Below, in pieces: positions 39,557 through 46,736 of a stretch of DNA of 64,000 nt. Origin of the DNA: Candidatus Tectimicrobiota bacterium. Its GTDB lineage: Bacteria > JACPUC01. The notes below the pieces were generated by a model. It did no database searches and was not told the origin of the DNA. It worked only from the letters and a program-made list of their open reading frames with translations. Numbering within the stretch: the stretch's first letter is position 1; every line of letters begins with the position of its first letter. The translations under genes were made by a program, and so were the position numbers. The stretch spans positions 62,001 to 126,000 of the forward strand of contig JACPUC010000008.1 of the NCBI GenBank assembly GCA_016192455.1, in the 5' to 3' direction.

Positions 39557-39934
39557 GTCGCCGGAACCTCAGGCGCCCCTGCCGCGTGCATCATCATCGG
39601 CCTGGCGGCGGGCGTCTCCCTGCCCGCCGGCGCGAGACAGAACGTTCACTCTCGGAGGCGCGCCTTCACGTTTCTGACCGTGCGCCCGGAGCGGTGTTCC
39701 CCCTTGGCCGCGGGGAGGCAAGTCGCTCCAGCGCGCAGCTCGACCGCGTGTAACCTCAGCTCCCTCCCCATGGCTCTCCGTCGCTTTCCTCCGCTGGCAC
39801 CCTGCTTGACTCCGGCTAGAAATTGCACCGGTTTTCGTCTACTATAGGTAACGCGTAGAGGTATCGCGGGGGCAGGGATGCGAAGCTCTGCCATGGAGGT
39901 GAGAGCTACGCATTGCGAGGAGGTAACTTCTGCG

Positions 39935-40915
39935 ATGTGGACGTTCTGGATGTCGGGGTTGTTGGCGCTGGCGCTGCTCCTCGGTGGTGGCGCGCCGGCG
40001 GTGTCGCAGGTCGTCGTCAAACCGCCCCCCCCAAATGGACCGGTCATCCGGCCCGACGCCGCCGAGACCCCGTCGCTCTTCCTCGTGCAAGAGCAGTCGG
40101 GGGGTACGATGACGGGGTTGCAGCGGGTAGGGCAAGCCCTGCTGGAGAACACCCGGCTCTACCTCATCATGCAGAACCGGCGCTACGCCGAGCGCATTCC
40201 GGATGAGCTCACGAGCTGCCTCCTCTGCCACCCGAACGGGCACACGAATGGCAGCTTCGTGGCGGCGCCGGATGGCTCCGGCCTGCGCTATGACGCCCCG
40301 TCGCTGCGCGGCGCCGCGTTCACCTTCCCGTACGCCTTCAAGCGGCAGCTCAACTCGCTGGAGCGTTTCATCTTCACCGAAATCCGCGCCGCGCACGTCG
40401 CCTTCACGTGGGAGCCCCAGATGCAGATTCCCTTCACAGGCGGAGGGCCGAGCCTCACCGAGGAGGAGCTTGACGCCATGGCGGCATTCATCCGCGCCCT
40501 GGATTTCCCGCCCAACCCGAAGCTCGATCGCTTCGGCAAGCTGAAGGCGGAGAGGGCCACGGCCGCCGAGCTGCGCGGTCAGGAGCTCTTCTTCGGCAAG
40601 GCGCGCTGCGCGGAGTGTCATGAGCCGCCCTTCTACACGGACCTGAAGGCGTACAACTTGCAAATTTCCGGCGAGAATCCGCCTTCCGGCATGATCAATG
40701 TGCCGACCCTGCGAGGCATCCGCTTTTCGGCGCCCTACTTCCACGATGGACGGTTCGACGGCCTCGGCGGGCGGTTCCCCGATGACGCGCCGATCGACCG
40801 CATCGACGTTGATGCCGCGCTCGGCGAGGTGGTCAGCTTCTTTAACGAGCTGCTGGAGCTGCAGTTGACGGCGGACGAAGAGGGCTCCCTGGTGGCATTC
40901 CTGAAAGCCCTTTAG
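39935..40915 (+). CDS. Exported di-heme c-type cytochrome (cytochrome c peroxidase/MauG-like fold)
   Basis: Signal peptide; CLLCH and CAECH; PTLRGI..SAPYFHDG. Confidence 0.82.
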   Translation: MWTFWMSGLLALALLLGGGAPAVSQVVVKPPPPNGPVIRPDAAETPSLFLVQEQSGGTMTGLQRVGQALLENTRLYLIMQNRRYAERIPDELTSCLLCHPNGHTNGSFVAAPDGSGLRYDAPSLRGAAFTFPYAFKRQLNSLERFIFTEIRAAHVAFTWEPQMQIPFTGGGPSLTEEELDAMAAFIRALDFPPNPKLDRFGKLKAERATAAELRGQELFFGKARCAECHEPPFYTDLKAYNLQISGENPPSGMINVPTLRGIRFSAPYFHDGRFDGLGGRFPDDAPIDRIDVDAALGEVVSFFNELLELQLTADEEGSLVAFLKAL

Positions 40916-41110: not shown

Positions 41111-41818
41111 TTGCCTCGCACGAGACCTGCCGCCCAAGCTGCCACGACTTACTTCTGCAACGTCTGGCTGGCGCTTCTCGCCTTGACCGCGCTCTGCTGG
41201 CTTGCGGCGCCCGCGGTGGGCGCCGCCGAGGCGCCCAGCGCGGCGGTTCCACCCCTTGGTGCAGAGAACCTCCCCGGCCGTGGCCGCCCGGCGGCGGCTG
41301 GGGAGGAGCCGGCCTCGTTCTTCTCCTTGTACTACGCCGGCGCGCTGGCGCTCGACCGCAAGCAGTACGACTTTGCCATCTCTGCCCTGCGGCAGGCCAT
41401 CGCCCTGCGGCCGGACTTCGCGGAGTCCTACTGCGAGCTGGGGATCGCGGAGCTGGGGCTGAAACGCCCGCGGCGCGCCATTGCAGCCCTGAAGCAGTCG
41501 CTGGCTTTGGGGCCGAGCTATGCCAGCCGCTACATGGCGCGGTTCTCGCTCGGCGAGGCGTACCAGCTTCTCGGTCTGTCACAGCGCGCGGCGGCGGCCT
41601 ACCAGAGCGCCCTGCGCCTGCATGGGAACCTGGCCGTGGCGCACAAGCGGCTGGCGGAAATCTACCTCACGCAGCAGCAGCGCGCCCGCACCATCGCCGC
41701 CTACTGGAGCTACGTCGCCTTCGCGCCCGCCGCCACCGACGCGGCCAGCATCGCGCGGCGGGCGCGCAGCCTGCAGGAGGAGGCGCGGCGCGCACAGCCC
41801 GCGCCCGGCAACCGTTAG
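41111..41818 (+). CDS. Exported tetratricopeptide-repeat protein
   Basis: TPR patterns (ALRQAIALRPDFAESY, AYQSALRLHGNLAVAH); TTG start after AAGGAGG is inferred. Confidence 0.75.
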   Translation: MPRTRPAAQAATTYFCNVWLALLALTALCWLAAPAVGAAEAPSAAVPPLGAENLPGRGRPAAAGEEPASFFSLYYAGALALDRKQYDFAISALRQAIALRPDFAESYCELGIAELGLKRPRRAIAALKQSLALGPSYASRYMARFSLGEAYQLLGLSQRAAAAYQSALRLHGNLAVAHKRLAEIYLTQQQRARTIAAYWSYVAFAPAATDAASIARRARSLQEEARRAQPAPGNR

Positions 41819-41884
41819 CGTTGCGTCACACCAGGGCGCTGACGCATGTGACGCCTTGCAGTCAGGATTGCTCAGCGGCTTTCT

Positions 41885-41972
41885 GGTGGGGGACCCTTGC
41901 TCCCCCGCACCCCGCCCTCATCCGTTCCCTCTGCCATTGGGAGAGAGCCAGGGGTAGGGATGCGCGAGGGGA
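41885..41972 (-). repeat. Multi-hairpin intergenic repeat, divergent copy 4
   Basis: Reverse complement CCCCTCGCGCATCCC...GGGGTGCGGGGGAGCAAGGGTCCCCCACC shares both ends with copies 1-3 but has a different core. Confidence 0.55.
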
Positions 41973-42138
41973 GGCGCTCATAGGTTCTCGCCTGACCTTT
42001 CCCACCAAAACCAGAAACCAATGCTGGGAAGTAATTCCCTGCGACGTCGCGCGCGTCGCTCCGCACGGCTGCGCGGCGCCATGCCGCCGCATCCAAGCGT
42101 GACGTTCGCCGCCGGCGCCGCGTCGAGAGGAGCCTCTG

Positions 42139-42981
42139 ATGGAAATCGTGCGAATCAAGGAGCCCCACGAGTACCCGCCAAAGAGTCAACGGGTGTTTGA
42201 ACGCGTCAAGGATTGGTTCGGGGTCGATTTCGTCCCCAAGATGGATCGGGCGCAGAACCACTACCCCGAGTTCGGCGACGGGTTTCGGCGCGCCGCCAAA
42301 GTGACGATGCCCGATGGCGATCTCAGCCGCGGCCAGAAGGAGATGATCGCCGGGGCGGTGAGCGCCATCAATGTCTGCGAGTACTGAGGCCAGGCCCACA
42401 TCGCTGCCGGGATGCAGCAAGGCCTGGATGATGAGGACCTCTGGTTCGAGATGGCCTACACCGCCTCCGCCACCCATGGGCTCAACGCGGTCGCCGATGG
42501 CCTGCGCCTGCCCCTCGACTTCGCCGGCGCGGCGGGGACGGGCAACGGCGGGGCGCCGCCGTTCATCCCTCTGCTGAGCTACGAGGAGGCGTCCGGCAGC
42601 GTCCGGCGCATCTATGACGACATCAAGGCCTATTACGCCATGGATGATGTCCCGAACGTCTTCACGGCCATCGCCGACGATGCCACCTACCTGCGCGAAA
42701 CGTGGAGCTACGTGAAGGGGACGTTCACGACCAAAAAGCTGGAGCGCAGCTTCAAGGAGTGCCTCGCCTTCGCCGTCTCGCTCACCGGCAAGTCGGCCTA
42801 TGGCGCTGATTTCCACCTGCGGGAGATGCGGCGCCTGGGCGTGAGTCCGAAGGCGGTTCGCGAGGTCATCCAGGTGACGCAGCTCTTCAATGTAGCGACG
42901 AAGCTGGCGGACGCCCTGCACCTCGAGCCCGACCTGTCGCCCCAGGTCATCAAGGCGCAACGTCAAAAGACCGCGCCATGA
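42139..42981 (+). CDS. Two-domain AhpD/carboxymuconolactone-decarboxylase-like protein, predicted selenoprotein (Sec83, CxxU)
   Basis: ORFs 42139..42387 and 42412..42981 are in frame; read-through gives KEMIAGAVSAINVCEY-U-GQAH (AhpD CxxCxxxH); SECIS-like hairpin follows; RBS GAGGAG only at the first ATG. Confidence 0.85.
42388..42427 (+). promoter_or_regulatory. Bacterial SECIS-like stem-loop
   Basis: CCAGGCC(42390-96)/GGCCTGG(42421-27) lower stem; GCTGC(42403-07)/GCAGC(42414-18) upper stem; loop CGGGAT begins 20 nt after the TGA. Confidence 0.75.
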
Positions 42982-43341
42982 AGGCGCGCCGAGGTTCCGA
43001 ACGGCAGAAGCCGAAGAGGTTCGCCGGCGGAGGCTCGCGGCCGCTGGCTAGCGGCGCGGCCACCGCCCCTTGGAAGTGTGAGGGGAGCGCGAGCGTGGGG
43101 TCGGGCAATGGGGCAGCGGAGTGGCTGGCAACCATGCGGCAGGGAATGGGGTTGCGAAGCGAGAGGAAGTTCTCCATAGTGTATGTTTTGCGTCGTCAGC
43201 GGCATCCACGCGCGACGCGACCGGTATCCTGAGCATTGTCAACTCGCCGTCGGCGCCTCACGCCGAACTCTGACAGCCCAGCGCGCAACGCAATCTGAAG
43301 GGCTTGCACGCAAACGCGACTGTAGGAGGTCAAGGAGAACC

Positions 43342-44652: not shown

Positions 44653-44856
44653 ATGGCCGCTGACGTCAAAACCGCCGCGATTCGCTGCAAGTCCTGCAAC
44701 TGCCGCTTCGACGTGCCCGACGGCCAAAAGGAGGTTGTCTGTCCCGAATGCGGCCAGGGCTGGAAGATGCGCTGGTTTCGACCCGGGGTGGGCATGATCA
44801 TCGCGCCGCTCAACTGGACGCAGTTCCAGAAGGAGGCGAGAAGGGTTCAGGAATGA
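44653..44856 (+). CDS. Small zinc-ribbon protein (67 aa)
   Basis: MAADVKTAAIRCKSCNCRFDVPDGQKEVVCPECGQGW...; stop overlaps AOR start (ATGA). Confidence 0.78.
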   Translation: MAADVKTAAIRCKSCNCRFDVPDGQKEVVCPECGQGWKMRWFRPGVGMIIAPLNWTQFQKEARRVQE

Positions 44857-46736
44857 GCAACAAGATTGCATGGGTCAACTTGGCGACCCGTGAGGTGCGG
44901 ATAGAGGAGATTCCGGAGGAGTGGCGGCGGAAATACATCGGCGGGCGCGGCATCAATCAGTACCTCCTCTTCCAGCTCGTCGATAACTCCACCGAGCCGC
45001 TCGGGCCGGAAAACCCCCTCATCGTCGGCGCGGGCGCACTCTCCGGGGTGCTGGGCATCGCCAACTGCCGCGTCAACTTCTCCGCCAAGTCGCCCGAGAC
45101 AGGGCACTTGGGTGACTCCAGCATGGGGGGCTTCTTCGCCTCCGAGCTGCGCCAGGCGGGGTTCGACCATATCGTCTTCACGGAGCGCGCCGAAGAGCCC
45201 ATCTACGTCACCGTGCGGGACGGCGCCATCTGCTTCCACGCCGCGGCGCACCTCGCTGACACGAACGCCATCAGCATTCAGGACCGCATCAGGGAGGAGC
45301 TGGGAGACCCCCGGGTGCAGGTGGCGGCGATCGGCCCGGCAGGGCGCAACAAGGTGGTGTGGGCCTGCATCCTCAACGGCTCGAGCGACGCCGCCGGTCG
45401 CACCGGCATGGGCGCCGTCATGGGATCGAAGAACATCTGGGCCATCGCCGCCCGCGGCACCAAACCGCTGCAGGTGCACGACCCCGCCAAGCTCCTCGAA
45501 GTGACGAACCGGCAGTACACCCAGGTGACGACGACGAAAGGCTTCCTGGCCACCTCCGTGTATGGGACGCTCATCCGCCTCAACAACACCCGCACCCAGG
45601 GCTACGAGGGGGGCCACAACCACCAGTTCAACATGATGGAGGAGGGGGGGGAGGAACTCGACTCCGACATCTTCCTGGAGCGCTACGAGTCGGCCAAGAC
45701 CTCCTGCTTCAACTGCCCCACCCACTGCCGGCACCACTACGAGATCAAAGAGGGACCGTTTGCGGGGACGAAGGGCGGCTCCATGGAGTACTACGGCGCC
45801 GGCGGCTGGGGCAGCCAATGCGGCAGCGGCGACTGGAACACCATCCTGGTAGCCTTCGCGCGCTGCAACGAGTGGGGCCTCGACGTCGGCTCCGCCACGG
45901 CCTACACCGGCTGGCTGATGGAGCTGTGGGAGAAAGGCATCCTCACCCGCGAGCACACCGACCTCGACTTCACCTGGGGCAACCAGGAGGCCATCTTCGG
46001 CATCCTCGAGCAGACGACCTTCCGCAAGGGATTCGGCAACCTCGTTGCCGACGGCTGGATGAAGACGGCCGCGTACCTCGGCAACGACGCCGGCCGTTAC
46101 ATCGACCACGTCAAGGGGCTGACCATCGAGCCGGACGACGTGCGCGGTCACCGCGCCCAGGCCCTCGGGCTCGCCACCTCATCGCGCGGCGCCGATCACC
46201 TGCGCAGCCGCTACACCCTCGAGGAGTTCAGCCTGCCGCCCCAGGTCACGGCGAAGCTCACCGGCCGCGCCATCCCGGCCTCGGCGGAGAGCTACGAGGG
46301 GAAGGAGTGGGCCTGCTTCTGGACCGAATCCCTCTGCGCCGTCGCCGACGCCTTGGGGATTTGCAAGTTCCTCACCAAGTGGCTGAGCGCCGGGCTGCTG
46401 GGGTTCGACGAGTTCAGTGAGTGGCTGGGGGCCGCCAGTGGCCTGAAACTGACGGCGCAGGAAATCCTCGAGGTGGGCGAGCGCATCTACAACGTCGAGC
46501 GCCTCTTCCTCGTGCGCCACGGCTTCCGCCGCAAGGACGACGACGTGCCGCTGAAGTTCTACCACGCCTGGACGCACGGCCCGCGCGCCGGCACGCGGGT
46601 GGAGCCGGAGCACTTCCAGCCGCTCCTCGAGCGCTACTACGAGCTGCACGGCTGGGATAGCGACGGCGTGCCGACGGAGGCAACGCTGCAACGCCTGGGC
46701 ATCGACCTGCGCATCGAGGCGAGCGCAACGGTTTAA
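44853..46736 (+). CDS. aor: Aldehyde:ferredoxin oxidoreductase (W/Mo-bis-pyranopterin family)
   Basis: YIGGRG, KSPETG, AAIGPAG, AGRTGMGAVMGSKN, CFNCPTHC, RGADHL, LGICKF, YYELHGWD..GVP. Confidence 0.93.
   Translation: MSNKIAWVNLATREVRIEEIPEEWRRKYIGGRGINQYLLFQLVDNSTEPLGPENPLIVGAGALSGVLGIANCRVNFSAKSPETGHLGDSSMGGFFASELRQAGFDHIVFTERAEEPIYVTVRDGAICFHAAAHLADTNAISIQDRIREELGDPRVQVAAIGPAGRNKVVWACILNGSSDAAGRTGMGAVMGSKNIWAIAARGTKPLQVHDPAKLLEVTNRQYTQVTTTKGFLATSVYGTLIRLNNTRTQGYEGGHNHQFNMMEEGGEELDSDIFLERYESAKTSCFNCPTHCRHHYEIKEGPFAGTKGGSMEYYGAGGWGSQCGSGDWNTILVAFARCNEWGLDVGSATAYTGWLMELWEKGILTREHTDLDFTWGNQEAIFGILEQTTFRKGFGNLVADGWMKTAAYLGNDAGRYIDHVKGLTIEPDDVRGHRAQALGLATSSRGADHLRSRYTLEEFSLPPQVTAKLTGRAIPASAESYEGKEWACFWTESLCAVADALGICKFLTKWLSAGLLGFDEFSEWLGAASGLKLTAQEILEVGERIYNVERLFLVRHGFRRKDDDVPLKFYHAWTHGPRAGTRVEPEHFQPLLERYYELHGWDSDGVPTEATLQRLGIDLRIEASATV

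What the first reader, a model, noticed from the sequence alone, without database searches (positions are those of the whole stretch)
42139..42981. Hidden selenoprotein: in-frame UGA at the AhpD redox motif, followed by a SECIS-like hairpin
Seen: the 82-aa and 189-aa ORFs share a frame and are separated by one TGA (42385-42387). Read-through gives SAINV-C-E-Y-[TGA]-G-Q-A-H. A two-tier stem-loop (CCAGGCC/GGCCTGG; GCTGC-CGGGAT-GCAGC) starts right after the TGA, with G early in the apical loop. The second ORF's ATG sits inside this hairpin with no RBS. Known: AhpD/CMD peroxidase-like proteins use CxxCxxxH, bacterial Sec is inserted at UGA codons with a 3'-adjacent SECIS, and AhpD-like selenoproteins have been reported. 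Inference: one 280-aa CxxU protein that pipelines would split or call a pseudogene.
Basis: partly seen in the sequence, partly recalled or inferred. Interest (0 to 1): 0.88.

Follow-up and report, generated by a model that had tools for sequence, protein, structure and literature searches.

The report
Mis-split AhpD-like selenoprotein gene
The two adjacent reading frames are one gene for a redox protein whose in-frame TGA almost certainly encodes selenocysteine; this kind of selenoprotein is already known, so the gain is a corrected gene call.

Summary
ORFs 42139-42387 (82 aa) and 42412-42981 (189 aa) share a frame, separated by one TGA at 42385-42387. Read-through gives a 280-aa protein with V-C-E-Y-U-G-Q-A-H.

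The selenoprotein reading is strongly supported:
- The genome holds selA, selB, a Sec-containing selD, and tRNA-Sec with anticodon UCA.
- TGA sits at this column in 82 of 82 sequences: the window, a 45%-identical paralog in the same genome, and 80 loci from other genomes.
- More distant full-length homologs carry Cys there.
- A 5-bp hairpin with a CGGGAA/U loop follows the TGA in all 82. Its synonymous sites are frozen (0.07 versus 1.22 bits), and the window shows a compensatory A-U to U-A swap.
- The model has an AhpD fold, pLDDT 95.

The window's outer stem is not conserved, and the hairpin's energy alone is unremarkable (z = -0.73).

AhpD-like and CMD-like CxxU selenoproteins have been known since 2005. 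This scan already noted what appears to be the same-genome paralog. The gene is therefore a new member of a known kind. Every closer database relative I looked at is split at, or cut just after, this codon. Interest is modest.

The parts
42128..42132 (+). Shine-Dalgarno-like AGGAG, 6 nt upstream of the start codon
   Evidence: Read directly from the sequence. No sigma-70-like promoter was found in 41750-43250.
42139..42981 (+). Single selenoprotein gene: 280 codons plus the terminal TGA stop (42979-42981). The product is a two-domain AhpD/CMD-like protein.
   Evidence: Pfam CMD PF02627 scores 74 bits against a cut-off of 23, and its best stretch (residues 43-123) runs across the TGA. The AlphaFold2 model has pLDDT 95.3, with helix 81-93 running through residue 83.
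42340..42342 (+). Glu68 codon (K67-E68), 12 residues before Cys80. Candidate proton-relay residue.
   Evidence: K67 is invariant and E68 is at least 90% conserved in alignment A4. Its role is inferred by analogy with AhpD, which is recalled and not tested here.
42376..42378 (+). Cys80 codon (TGC), first residue of the C-x-x-U motif
   Evidence: Cys in 82 of 82 sequences (codon -3). Invariant in A4.
42385..42387 (+). In-frame TGA = selenocysteine codon (residue 83)
   Evidence: TGA in 82 of 82 aligned sequences. Cys at this column in distant full-length homologs and in solved AhpD-core structures such as 2ouw.
42397..42399 (+). His87 codon of C-x-x-U-x-x-x-H
   Evidence: His in 82 of 82 (codon +4). 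Invariant in A4.
42403..42418 (+). Conserved SECIS core: stem GCUGC/GCAGC with apical loop CGGGAU, beginning 15 nt after the TGA
   Evidence: All 5 pairs are kept in 82 of 82 sequences. One pair is A-U in 79, G-U in 2, and U-A in 1, the last being this window. Synonymous-site entropy is 0.07 bit here against 1.22 bit elsewhere. The core is in the MFE fold of 78 of 82 sequences.
42390..42427 (+). Full two-tier hairpin of this sequence, including the window-specific lower stem CCAGGCC/GGCCUGG
   Evidence: MFE -20.5 kcal/mol. In this register the lower stem is paired in only 45.6% of cells across the family. Most relatives form other enclosing pairs.
42265..42507 (+). N-terminal catalytic CMD/AhpD domain (residues 43-123)
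   Evidence: Pfam PF02627 best stretch. TIGR00778 ahpD_dom scores 45 bits against a cut-off of 27.8.
42595..42918 (+). C-terminal second CMD-like domain (about residues 153-260) without a CxxC/CxxU motif
   Evidence: Pfam reports 2 CMD stretches. Helices 153-260 in the model. The profile's second stretch matches 2oyo residues 121-188. The family consensus KEALAFAVS has no conserved Cys pair.

Best explanation
Window 42139-42981 is one gene for a 280-residue, two-domain AhpD/CMD-fold oxidoreductase whose residue 83 is selenocysteine.

Decoding (inferred from the standard bacterial pathway). SelB carrying Sec-tRNA(Sec, anticodon UCA) binds the hairpin that begins 15 nt after the UGA, with core GCUGC-CGGGAU-GCAGC. 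Sec is inserted and translation continues to the TGA at 42979.

Product. The protein carries a C80-x-x-U83-x-x-x-H87 centre with K67/E68 upstream. This is the AhpD arrangement with the second Cys replaced by Sec. The second CMD-like domain has no redox motif. It probably completes the fold, as in two-repeat AhpD-like structures.

Function (inferred). The protein most likely cycles between a selenol/thiol form and a selenenylsulfide form, either to reduce a hydroperoxide directly or to re-reduce a partner such as a peroxiredoxin-type protein.

Shown here: gene continuity, conservation of the TGA, the constrained hairpin, the Sec machinery and the fold.

Inferred: actual Sec insertion, the catalytic chemistry and the physiological substrate.
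For: 1. Sec machinery in the same genome:
   - selA 596 bits and selB 366 bits, adjacent on contig 23.
   - selD 389 bits, itself with one in-frame TGA followed by a hairpin.
   - tRNA-Sec 75.5 bits, anticodon tca by ARAGORN.
2. TGA is at the aligned column in 82 of 82 sequences. These are the window, its 45%-identical paralog (SCRY-U-TNFH) and 80 loci from other genomes. The loci were retrieved with C-terminal peptide patterns, so the retrieval was blind to this column. Each read-through frame is 262-381 codons; 81 of 82 end at a stop, and one runs off its locus.
3. Cys occupies the column in the 17 more distant homologs among the 21 aligned (20-37% identity to the window). It also does so in the solved AhpD-core structure 2ouw.
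4. RNA evidence:
   - The 5 core pairs are kept in 82 of 82. One position is A-U in 79, G-U in 2 and U-A in 1. The U-A is the window, a double compensatory change (GCA to GCU, CUG to CAG).
   - The 7-pair upper helix is 96.6% paired.
   - Four conserved degenerate codons inside the hairpin have mean third-position entropy 0.07 bit. The 44 such codons elsewhere in the gene average 1.22 bit, minimum 0.44.
   - The core is present in the MFE fold of 78 of 82 sequences.
5. Protein evidence:
   - Pfam CMD scores 74 bits across the TGA, and the ahpD core domain is above its cut-off.
   - AlphaFold2 pLDDT is 95.3, pTM 0.92.
   - The best PDB folds are AhpD-core peroxidase-related proteins 2prr, 6k40 and 2oyo, and the two-domain 2q0t (TM 0.61-0.64).
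6. TGA is an ordinary stop in this genome. selA and selB have no internal stops, and this gene and many orthologs end in TGA.
Against: - There is no experimental evidence of selenium incorporation.
- The hairpin's folding energy is not better than shuffled sequence (z = -0.73).
- No Rfam family matches it.
- Most core pairs never vary, so covariation rests on one pair.
- The peptide encoded by the hairpin (T/I-A-A-G-K/M-L/Q-Q-G) is itself conserved. Part of the nucleotide conservation is therefore protein-driven. The synonymous-site test addresses this but uses only 4 codons.
- The protein scores below the cut-off of every NCBIfam (seleno)protein model tried: TIGR01926 64 versus 81.8, NF041238 36.9 versus 175, NF041047 15 versus 110.
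- No conserved redox partner gene lies next to it in the window, so the substrate is a guess.
Confidence: 0.93

Rival explanations
1. A pseudogene or assembly error. A former Cys codon (TGC/TGT) became TGA, and the gene is dead or mis-sequenced.
For: One nucleotide separates TGA from TGC/TGT. The genome is a draft of 31 contigs, 88% complete.
Against: TGA is at the same column in 82 of 82 independent assemblies, including a 45%-identical paralog in the same genome. The reading frame and the protein conservation continue undiminished after the TGA. Synonymous sites just downstream are frozen into a hairpin.
Confidence: 0.01
2. Two separately translated genes. Translation stops at the TGA to give an 82-aa product, and the 189-aa ORF is initiated independently at ATG 42412.
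For: Public gene calls give exactly these pieces. 21 of the 22 hits begin shortly after the TGA column and the 22nd ends at it. Several 82-aa N-terminal fragments appear. Some termination at UGA is expected as a by-product of Sec decoding (general knowledge).
Against: The Pfam CMD domain (residues 43-123) and model helix 81-93 run straight across the TGA. An 82-aa piece would end in the middle of the CxxC(U)xxxH motif. ATG 42412 lies in the hairpin loop without a Shine-Dalgarno motif. The residues between the TGA and that ATG (G-Q-A-H-I-A-A-G) include invariant His87. Distant homologs with Cys are single polypeptides.
Confidence: 0.04
3. TGA is reassigned genome-wide or read through as Trp or Gly rather than Sec.
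For: Two database relatives carry W (P0047, CEYW) or G (P0034, CQYG) at the column. This is what gene calls under codes 4 or 25 would give. I could not check their DNA.
Against: selA and selB in this genome have no internal TGA. The gene and about half of its orthologs terminate at TGA. The complete Sec pathway is present and the column is Cys in homologs. A conserved hairpin would not be needed for a reassigned codon.
Confidence: 0.01

Closest known systems
AhpD-like selenoprotein family (COG2128 / TIGR01926, motif CxxU), from the Sargasso Sea and GOS metagenomes. Seen as passages only: PMC1088965, PMC2398784, and the catalogue table in PMC13188914.
   Same: CxxU motif in an AhpD/CMD fold, with Sec in place of the second Cys. 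Cys homologs are widespread. There is a bacterial SECIS with G in the apical loop. The best NCBIfam hit is TIGR01926, and the best fold hit, 2prr, is a protein of this type.
   Different: It scores 64 bits against TIGR01926's cut-off of 81.8. It is about 100 residues longer than that 178-position model because it carries a full second CMD-like domain after a linker. No relative with more than 37% identity to the window in the sets I examined carries Cys at the column.
CMD domain-containing / 'AhpD-like 2' / CMD-like selenoprotein (PF02627, CxxU). Seen as passages only: PMC1088965, PMC2398784, PMC13188914.
   Same: PF02627 is the only Pfam family above its cut-off, and the motif is CxxU. PMC2398784 reports AhpD-like 2 as more abundant in non-marine samples. 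That fits the groundwater and soil MAG labels of many relatives.
   Different: I could not compare sequences with the published exemplar because accessions cannot be fetched and supplements are closed. Whether this two-domain form is the same subfamily is open.
Mycobacterium tuberculosis AhpD (PDB 1knc/1gu9), the Cys-type alkylhydroperoxidase that re-reduces AhpC
   Same: Same fold (TM normalised to target 0.71-0.73). The family profile matches it at E = 4e-6 over the CxxCxxxH region. An acidic residue lies 12 positions before the first Cys; for AhpD this spacing is recalled and was not checked here.
   Different: Only 11% identity. It has Sec instead of Cys. No ahpC or lipoamide-system genes are adjacent in the window.
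E. coli fdhF-type bacterial SECIS (recalled textbook model)
   Same: A hairpin immediately 3' of the UGA inside the coding sequence, with G residues in the apical loop and SelB present in the genome.
   Different: The sequence is unrelated. No Rfam model matched. The core here is only 5-7 bp with a 6-nt loop.

Membership tests
Bacterial selenoprotein gene (Sec-UGA decoding) | In-frame UGA aligned with Cys in homologs, and conserved as UGA in orthologs | tested here: met
   TGA in 82 of 82 sequences. Cys in the 17 more distant homologs among the 21 aligned and in 2ouw.
Bacterial selenoprotein gene (Sec-UGA decoding) | SECIS stem-loop shortly 3' of the UGA with G in the apical loop | tested here: met
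   The core stem starts 15 nt after the UGA and the loop is CGGGAU. It is conserved in 82 of 82 with one compensatory change and frozen synonymous sites. The energy alone is not significant (z = -0.73).
Bacterial selenoprotein gene (Sec-UGA decoding) | selA, selB, selC (tRNA-Sec) and selD in the genome | tested here: met
   All four score above their curated cut-offs. ARAGORN gives anticodon tca.
Bacterial selenoprotein gene (Sec-UGA decoding) | Selenium actually incorporated at the UGA | not testable with these tools
   Needs 75Se labelling or mass spectrometry.
CMD / AhpD superfamily (Pfam PF02627; TIGR00778 ahpD core domain) | Profile score above the curated cut-off | tested here: met
   PF02627 scores 74 bits versus 23. 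TIGR00778 scores 45 bits versus 27.8.
CMD / AhpD superfamily (Pfam PF02627; TIGR00778 ahpD core domain) | All-helical AhpD fold with the CxxCxxxH motif at a helix N-terminus | tested here: met
   Model pLDDT 95.3, with helix 81-93 starting at the motif. Top Foldseek hits are 2prr, 2q0t, 6k40 and 2oyo. C80, H87 and Y82 are invariant.
TIGR01926 'peroxidase-related enzyme' (the model cited for AhpD-like selenoproteins in PMC13188914) | Score at or above the 81.8-bit cut-off | tested here: not met
   64 bits, and only residues 11-93 match profile positions 10-92 of 178.
NF041238 AhpD_rel_CFYUT, NF041047 GSU3128, NF053654 YciW-related, NF041537 ArsM/AhpD (curated selenoprotein models) | Score at or above the curated cut-off | tested here: not met
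   36.9 versus 175; 15 versus 110; 15 versus 310; 18.8 versus 510.
Alkylhydroperoxidase AhpD proper (TIGR00777) | Equivalog-level score and partnership with AhpC | tested here: not met
   24.1 bits versus 191.95. No ahpC-like neighbour among the five flanking window ORFs scanned.

The most novel reading that the evidence does not exclude
This may be a distinct two-domain AhpD-like subfamily of about 265-320 aa that exists only in the Sec form, and that no curated model covers.
- In the sets examined, no relative with more than 37% identity to the window carries Cys at the column.
- The 16-nt SECIS core (GCAGCCGGGAAGCUGC) is nearly invariant in MAGs labelled Methylomirabilota/Rokubacteria, Acidobacteriota, Chloroflexota classes and others. 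That would suggest the gene and its SECIS spread together, or that the SECIS is unusually tightly tied to SelB.
- In one clade the gene sits beside a ferredoxin:thioredoxin-reductase-like gene. That hints at a ferredoxin-driven selenol/thiol reduction pathway.
Probability: 0.35. Interest if true: 0.45.

Novelty: new member of a known kind. Interest (0 to 1): 0.3.

Why it matters
The practical value is annotation. Gene callers split this gene.
- In the protein database, 21 of the 22 hits start just after the TGA column and the 22nd ends at it.
- Clustered representatives include exact 82-aa N-terminal stubs.
- Genomes rich in such genes, here mostly labelled Methylomirabilota/Rokubacteria, therefore have under-counted selenoproteomes and mis-described redox proteins.

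The family also gives a clean natural example of a coding stretch under double constraint. A conserved peptide and a SECIS hairpin share the same 16 nucleotides, and the loss of synonymous variation is measurable. The biology itself, Sec in a CxxU AhpD-like centre, has been known since 2005.

Tried and rejected
- Rfam scan of the whole window at gathering thresholds: no match, so no curated SECIS family applies.
- Single-sequence folding statistics: not significant. I therefore relied on comparative evidence.
- The window's lower stem as a family-wide feature: rejected. Only 45.6% of cells pair in that register, and whole-structure covariation measures are weak apart from the upper helix.
- 'Relatives' search of 40 other genomes: all were only 'same domain' kin and gave 3 weak partial hits (E 1.8e-10 to 6.8e-4). 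This was uninformative for this column.
- Conserved-neighbour analysis by six-frame ORF clustering: noisy in this GC-rich DNA, with many shadow frames. No neighbour was shared by more than 24 loci. The only clean lead was an FTR-like gene in 23 of 83 sequences, absent from the window.
- Promoter and terminator scan of 41750-43250: no promoter-like site, and one terminator-like site on the minus strand at chance level.
- Pseudogene, split-gene and recoded-TGA readings were considered and rejected (see rival explanations).
- Not examined: the 30 weaker genome contigs relatives that one search did not keep. These could include Cys forms.
- Not used: sequencing-run, read-laying, complex-prediction and atlas tools.

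Full report
**Observation.**
- ORF 42139..42387 (82 aa) and ORF 42412..42981 (189 aa) lie in one frame, separated by a single TGA at 42385-42387.
- Reading through gives a 280-residue protein with ...SAINV-C80-E-Y-U83-G-Q-A-H87...
- An AGGAG lies 6 nt before the first ATG. The second ORF's ATG has no such motif.
- That second ATG sits across the loop/stem junction of the predicted hairpin. The outer stem is CCAGGCC/GGCCUGG, the inner stem GCUGC/GCAGC, and the loop CGGGAU.
- Taken alone, the hairpin is not special for this GC-rich DNA: -20.5 kcal/mol, z = -0.73, and 45 of 200 shuffles fold at least as well.
- Rfam has no match anywhere in the window.

**Sec machinery.**
The window is contig 7 of a 4.46-Mb, 31-contig draft genome, 88% complete. 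The genome encodes the full pathway:
- selA (596 bits) and selB (366 bits), adjacent on contig 23.
- selD (389 bits), which itself has one in-frame TGA. In one search it reads ...KVAG-U-AAKLGPG... with a hairpin after the TGA.
- A tRNA-Sec gene (75.5 bits) that ARAGORN reads with anticodon tca.

TGA is otherwise a normal stop. selA and selB have no internal stops, and this gene ends in TGA.

**Comparative test of the TGA.**
- The same genome has a paralog on contig 31 (L025:1501-2301, minus strand). It is 266 aa, 45% identical, and has its only in-frame TGA at the same column, SCRY-U-TNFH.
- A scan of one genome per species used peptide patterns from the C-terminal domain, so it was blind to the Sec column. 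It found 110 relatives and kept the best 80.
- I aligned the window protein to the best frame of each kept locus. The codon at the column is TGA in 82 of 82 sequences: the window, the paralog and the 80 loci.
- Each read-through frame is 262-381 codons with one internal TGA. 81 of 82 end at a stop and one runs off its locus.
- By my count of the record titles, 65 of the 80 loci are labelled Rokubacteria, Rokuibacteriota or Methylomirabilota.
- The remaining 15 are labelled Acidobacteriota (4), Dehalococcoidia (4), Chloroflexia, Limnocylindria, Deferrimicrobiaceae, Nitrosotalea (1 each) and 'uncultured bacterium' (3). MAG labels can be wrong.
- The 30 weaker relatives that one search did not keep were not examined.

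**What the protein databases show.**
- All 22 hits of the word-indexed search are pieces. 21 begin shortly after the TGA column, and 19 of those begin at an internal Met about 16 residues downstream. The 22nd (P0023) ends exactly at ...INVCEY.
- The exhaustive HMMER search of 1.84 billion representatives gave the same picture. It returned C-terminal pieces and exact 82-residue N-terminal pieces such as P0057, P0062 and P0064.
- From that list I aligned 21 proteins whose match spans or approaches the column.
- Ten two-domain proteins of 200-275 aa (P0086 and P0165 lack the N-terminal part), at 20-29% identity to the window, carry Cys at the column (for example NGCPYC..SH).
- Seven shorter proteins of 125-216 aa, at 27-37% identity, also carry Cys there.
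- Three rows do not carry Cys: P0047 has W, P0034 has G, and P0056 diverges as if frameshifted. A fourth, P0083, looks scrambled before the column (…TTEC then a gap) and then reads AHTAAGKLQGM. W and G are what gene calls under codes 4 and 25 would print for TGA, but I could not see their DNA.
- The family therefore shows the classic Sec/Cys pairing. Every relative closer than 37% identity that I examined carries TGA.

**The hairpin.**
The 60 nt from the TGA align without gaps across the 82 sequences.
- RNAalifold keeps a 5-bp stem (columns 19-23 with 30-34) and a 6-nt loop, CGGGAA in the family and CGGGAU in the window.
- Four pairs are invariant. The fifth is A-U in 79, G-U in 2 and U-A in 1. 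The U-A is the window itself, through GCA to GCU on one side and CUG to CAG on the other. That is a true compensatory change which also alters the peptide, Leu to Gln.
- A 7-bp version of the stem is 96.6% paired. The window's outer stem in its own register is only 45.6% paired, so it is not a family feature. Most members form other enclosing pairs, and the core is in the MFE fold of 78 of 82.
- The encoded peptide T-A-A-G-K-L-Q-G is itself conserved, so I tested synonymous sites.
- I took columns where at least 95% of sequences share an amino acid from a four- or six-codon family. The four inside the hairpin (GCA 79/82, GCC 82/82, GGG 82/82, CUG 81/82) have mean third-position entropy 0.07 bit.
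- The 44 such columns elsewhere average 1.22 bit, with a minimum of 0.44.
- This nucleotide-level constraint is what a SECIS predicts. A pseudogene or a plain stop does not predict it.

**The protein.**
- Pfam CMD (PF02627) scores 74 bits against a cut-off of 23, in two stretches. The best stretch (residues 43-123) spans the TGA.
- NCBIfam's ahpD core domain is above its cut-off (45 versus 27.8).
- Every fuller model is below its cut-off: TIGR01926 64 versus 81.8, and the curated selenoprotein models NF041238, NF041047, NF053654 and NF041537 are far below.
- I built an alignment of the window protein, 51 read-through relatives (of the 81 available) and 10 Cys homologs. AlphaFold2 on it gives pLDDT 95.3 and pTM 0.92. 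The model is all-helical, and helix 81-93 starts at the motif.
- Foldseek's best PDB matches are AhpD-core 'peroxidase-related' proteins (2prr, 6k40, 2oyo, 3c1l) and the two-domain 2q0t (TM 0.61-0.64). M. tuberculosis AhpD ranks lower.
- A profile search of PDB sequences aligns ...NaCeYCvraHtaag... with NSCSYCAHSHTAAA of 2ouw.
- K67, S75, C80, Y82 and H87 are invariant, and E68 is at least 90% conserved.
- The C-terminal domain is a second CMD-like repeat without a Cys pair.

**Mechanism.**
- Shown: one gene, a conserved Sec codon, a constrained hairpin, the Sec machinery and an AhpD fold.
- Inferred: SelB-dependent Sec insertion at residue 83. The C80/U83 pair cycles between selenol/thiol and selenenylsulfide, assisted by H87 and E68, to reduce peroxides or a peroxiredoxin-type partner. 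The roles assigned to the AhpD residues are recalled from the literature and were not checked here.
- The substrate is unknown. The five flanking window ORFs are a weak cytochrome c / di-haem peroxidase-like protein, a TPR protein, RpoZ, an unknown protein and an aldehyde:ferredoxin oxidoreductase. They give no clear partner.

**Comparison with what is known.**
- I saw passages of three papers. These were PMC1088965 (2005, Sargasso Sea), PMC2398784 (2008, GOS) and PMC13188914 (2026 review). For the other papers I saw only the search listings.
- From a fourth paper, PMC13326102 (BSepDB), I saw two passages. They show only that the database has an 'AhpD-like protein' family page.
- PMC2398784 lists AhpD-like 1 (299 selenoproteins) and AhpD-like 2 (pfam02627, 70 selenoproteins, more abundant in non-marine samples).
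- The review's catalogue lists AhpD-like (TIGR01926) and CMD-like (PF02627) selenoproteins. It also mentions a Methylomirabilota MAG predicted to hold 63 selenoprotein genes.
- The kind is therefore established.
- Whether this two-domain form is already in those catalogues I could not check, because supplements and accessions were not available.
Its length matches the paralog I examined (L025:1501-2301), so it is probably the same gene. It reached the same verdict.

**Verdict.**
It is a new member of a known kind, and interest is modest (0.3). The points worth keeping are:
- the corrected gene call;
- the systematic splitting of this family in public protein sets;
- TGA at the Sec column in all 82 sequences examined;
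- the very strongly constrained SECIS core.

Noticed in passing
G000 contig 31, L025:1501-2301 (minus strand): A second, 266-aa paralog of the same selenoprotein in this genome. It is 45% identical, has motif SCRY-U-TNFH, and has the family-consensus hairpin GCAGC-CGGGAA-GCUGC. At least two other MAGs also contributed two loci each (L029 and L092; L032 and L085), so paralog pairs recur.
   Followed up: yes
G000 contig 3, L010 position 1531 (selD): The genome's selD itself has an in-frame TGA (…KVAG-U-AAKLGPG…) followed by a hairpin with a GGG loop. SelD is therefore a selenoprotein here too.
   Followed up: partly
L065:1744-2157 and 22 other loci (list): A gene like the ferredoxin:thioredoxin reductase catalytic subunit (PF02943, 84 bits) lies upstream on the same strand in 23 of 83 sequences searched. 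In 7 of them the gap is 5-19 nt. In the rest it is about 410-710 nt, possibly with a small gene between. It is not present in the window. It could be a redox partner in one clade.
   Followed up: partly
Database proteins P0047 and P0034: Two relatives print W (CEYW) and G (CQYG) at the Sec column. These may be gene calls made under genetic codes 4 and 25 rather than real substitutions.
   Followed up: no
window 39878-40915 (+): An ORF two genes upstream has weak cytochrome c (27 bits) and di-haem cytochrome c peroxidase (24.7 bits, just under the 25.6 cut-off) matches. A peroxide-related neighbour is suggestive, but the match is weak.
   Followed up: no
window 44748-46736 (+): A clear tungsten-type aldehyde:ferredoxin oxidoreductase gene (AFOR_N 221 bits, AFOR_C 317 bits).
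   Followed up: no
(genome-level): All 40 'relatives' offered for this genome are only 'same domain' kin. The genome therefore has no close representative in the held species set.
   Followed up: no
L037, L038, L045, L066, L084 and others: A subset of orthologs carries a C-terminal extension of about 50 residues that is basic and rich in Ser and Arg (…VSGTSRAKISKGERRVASRASR…AAKKPV). It is absent from the window protein and its function is unknown.
   Followed up: no
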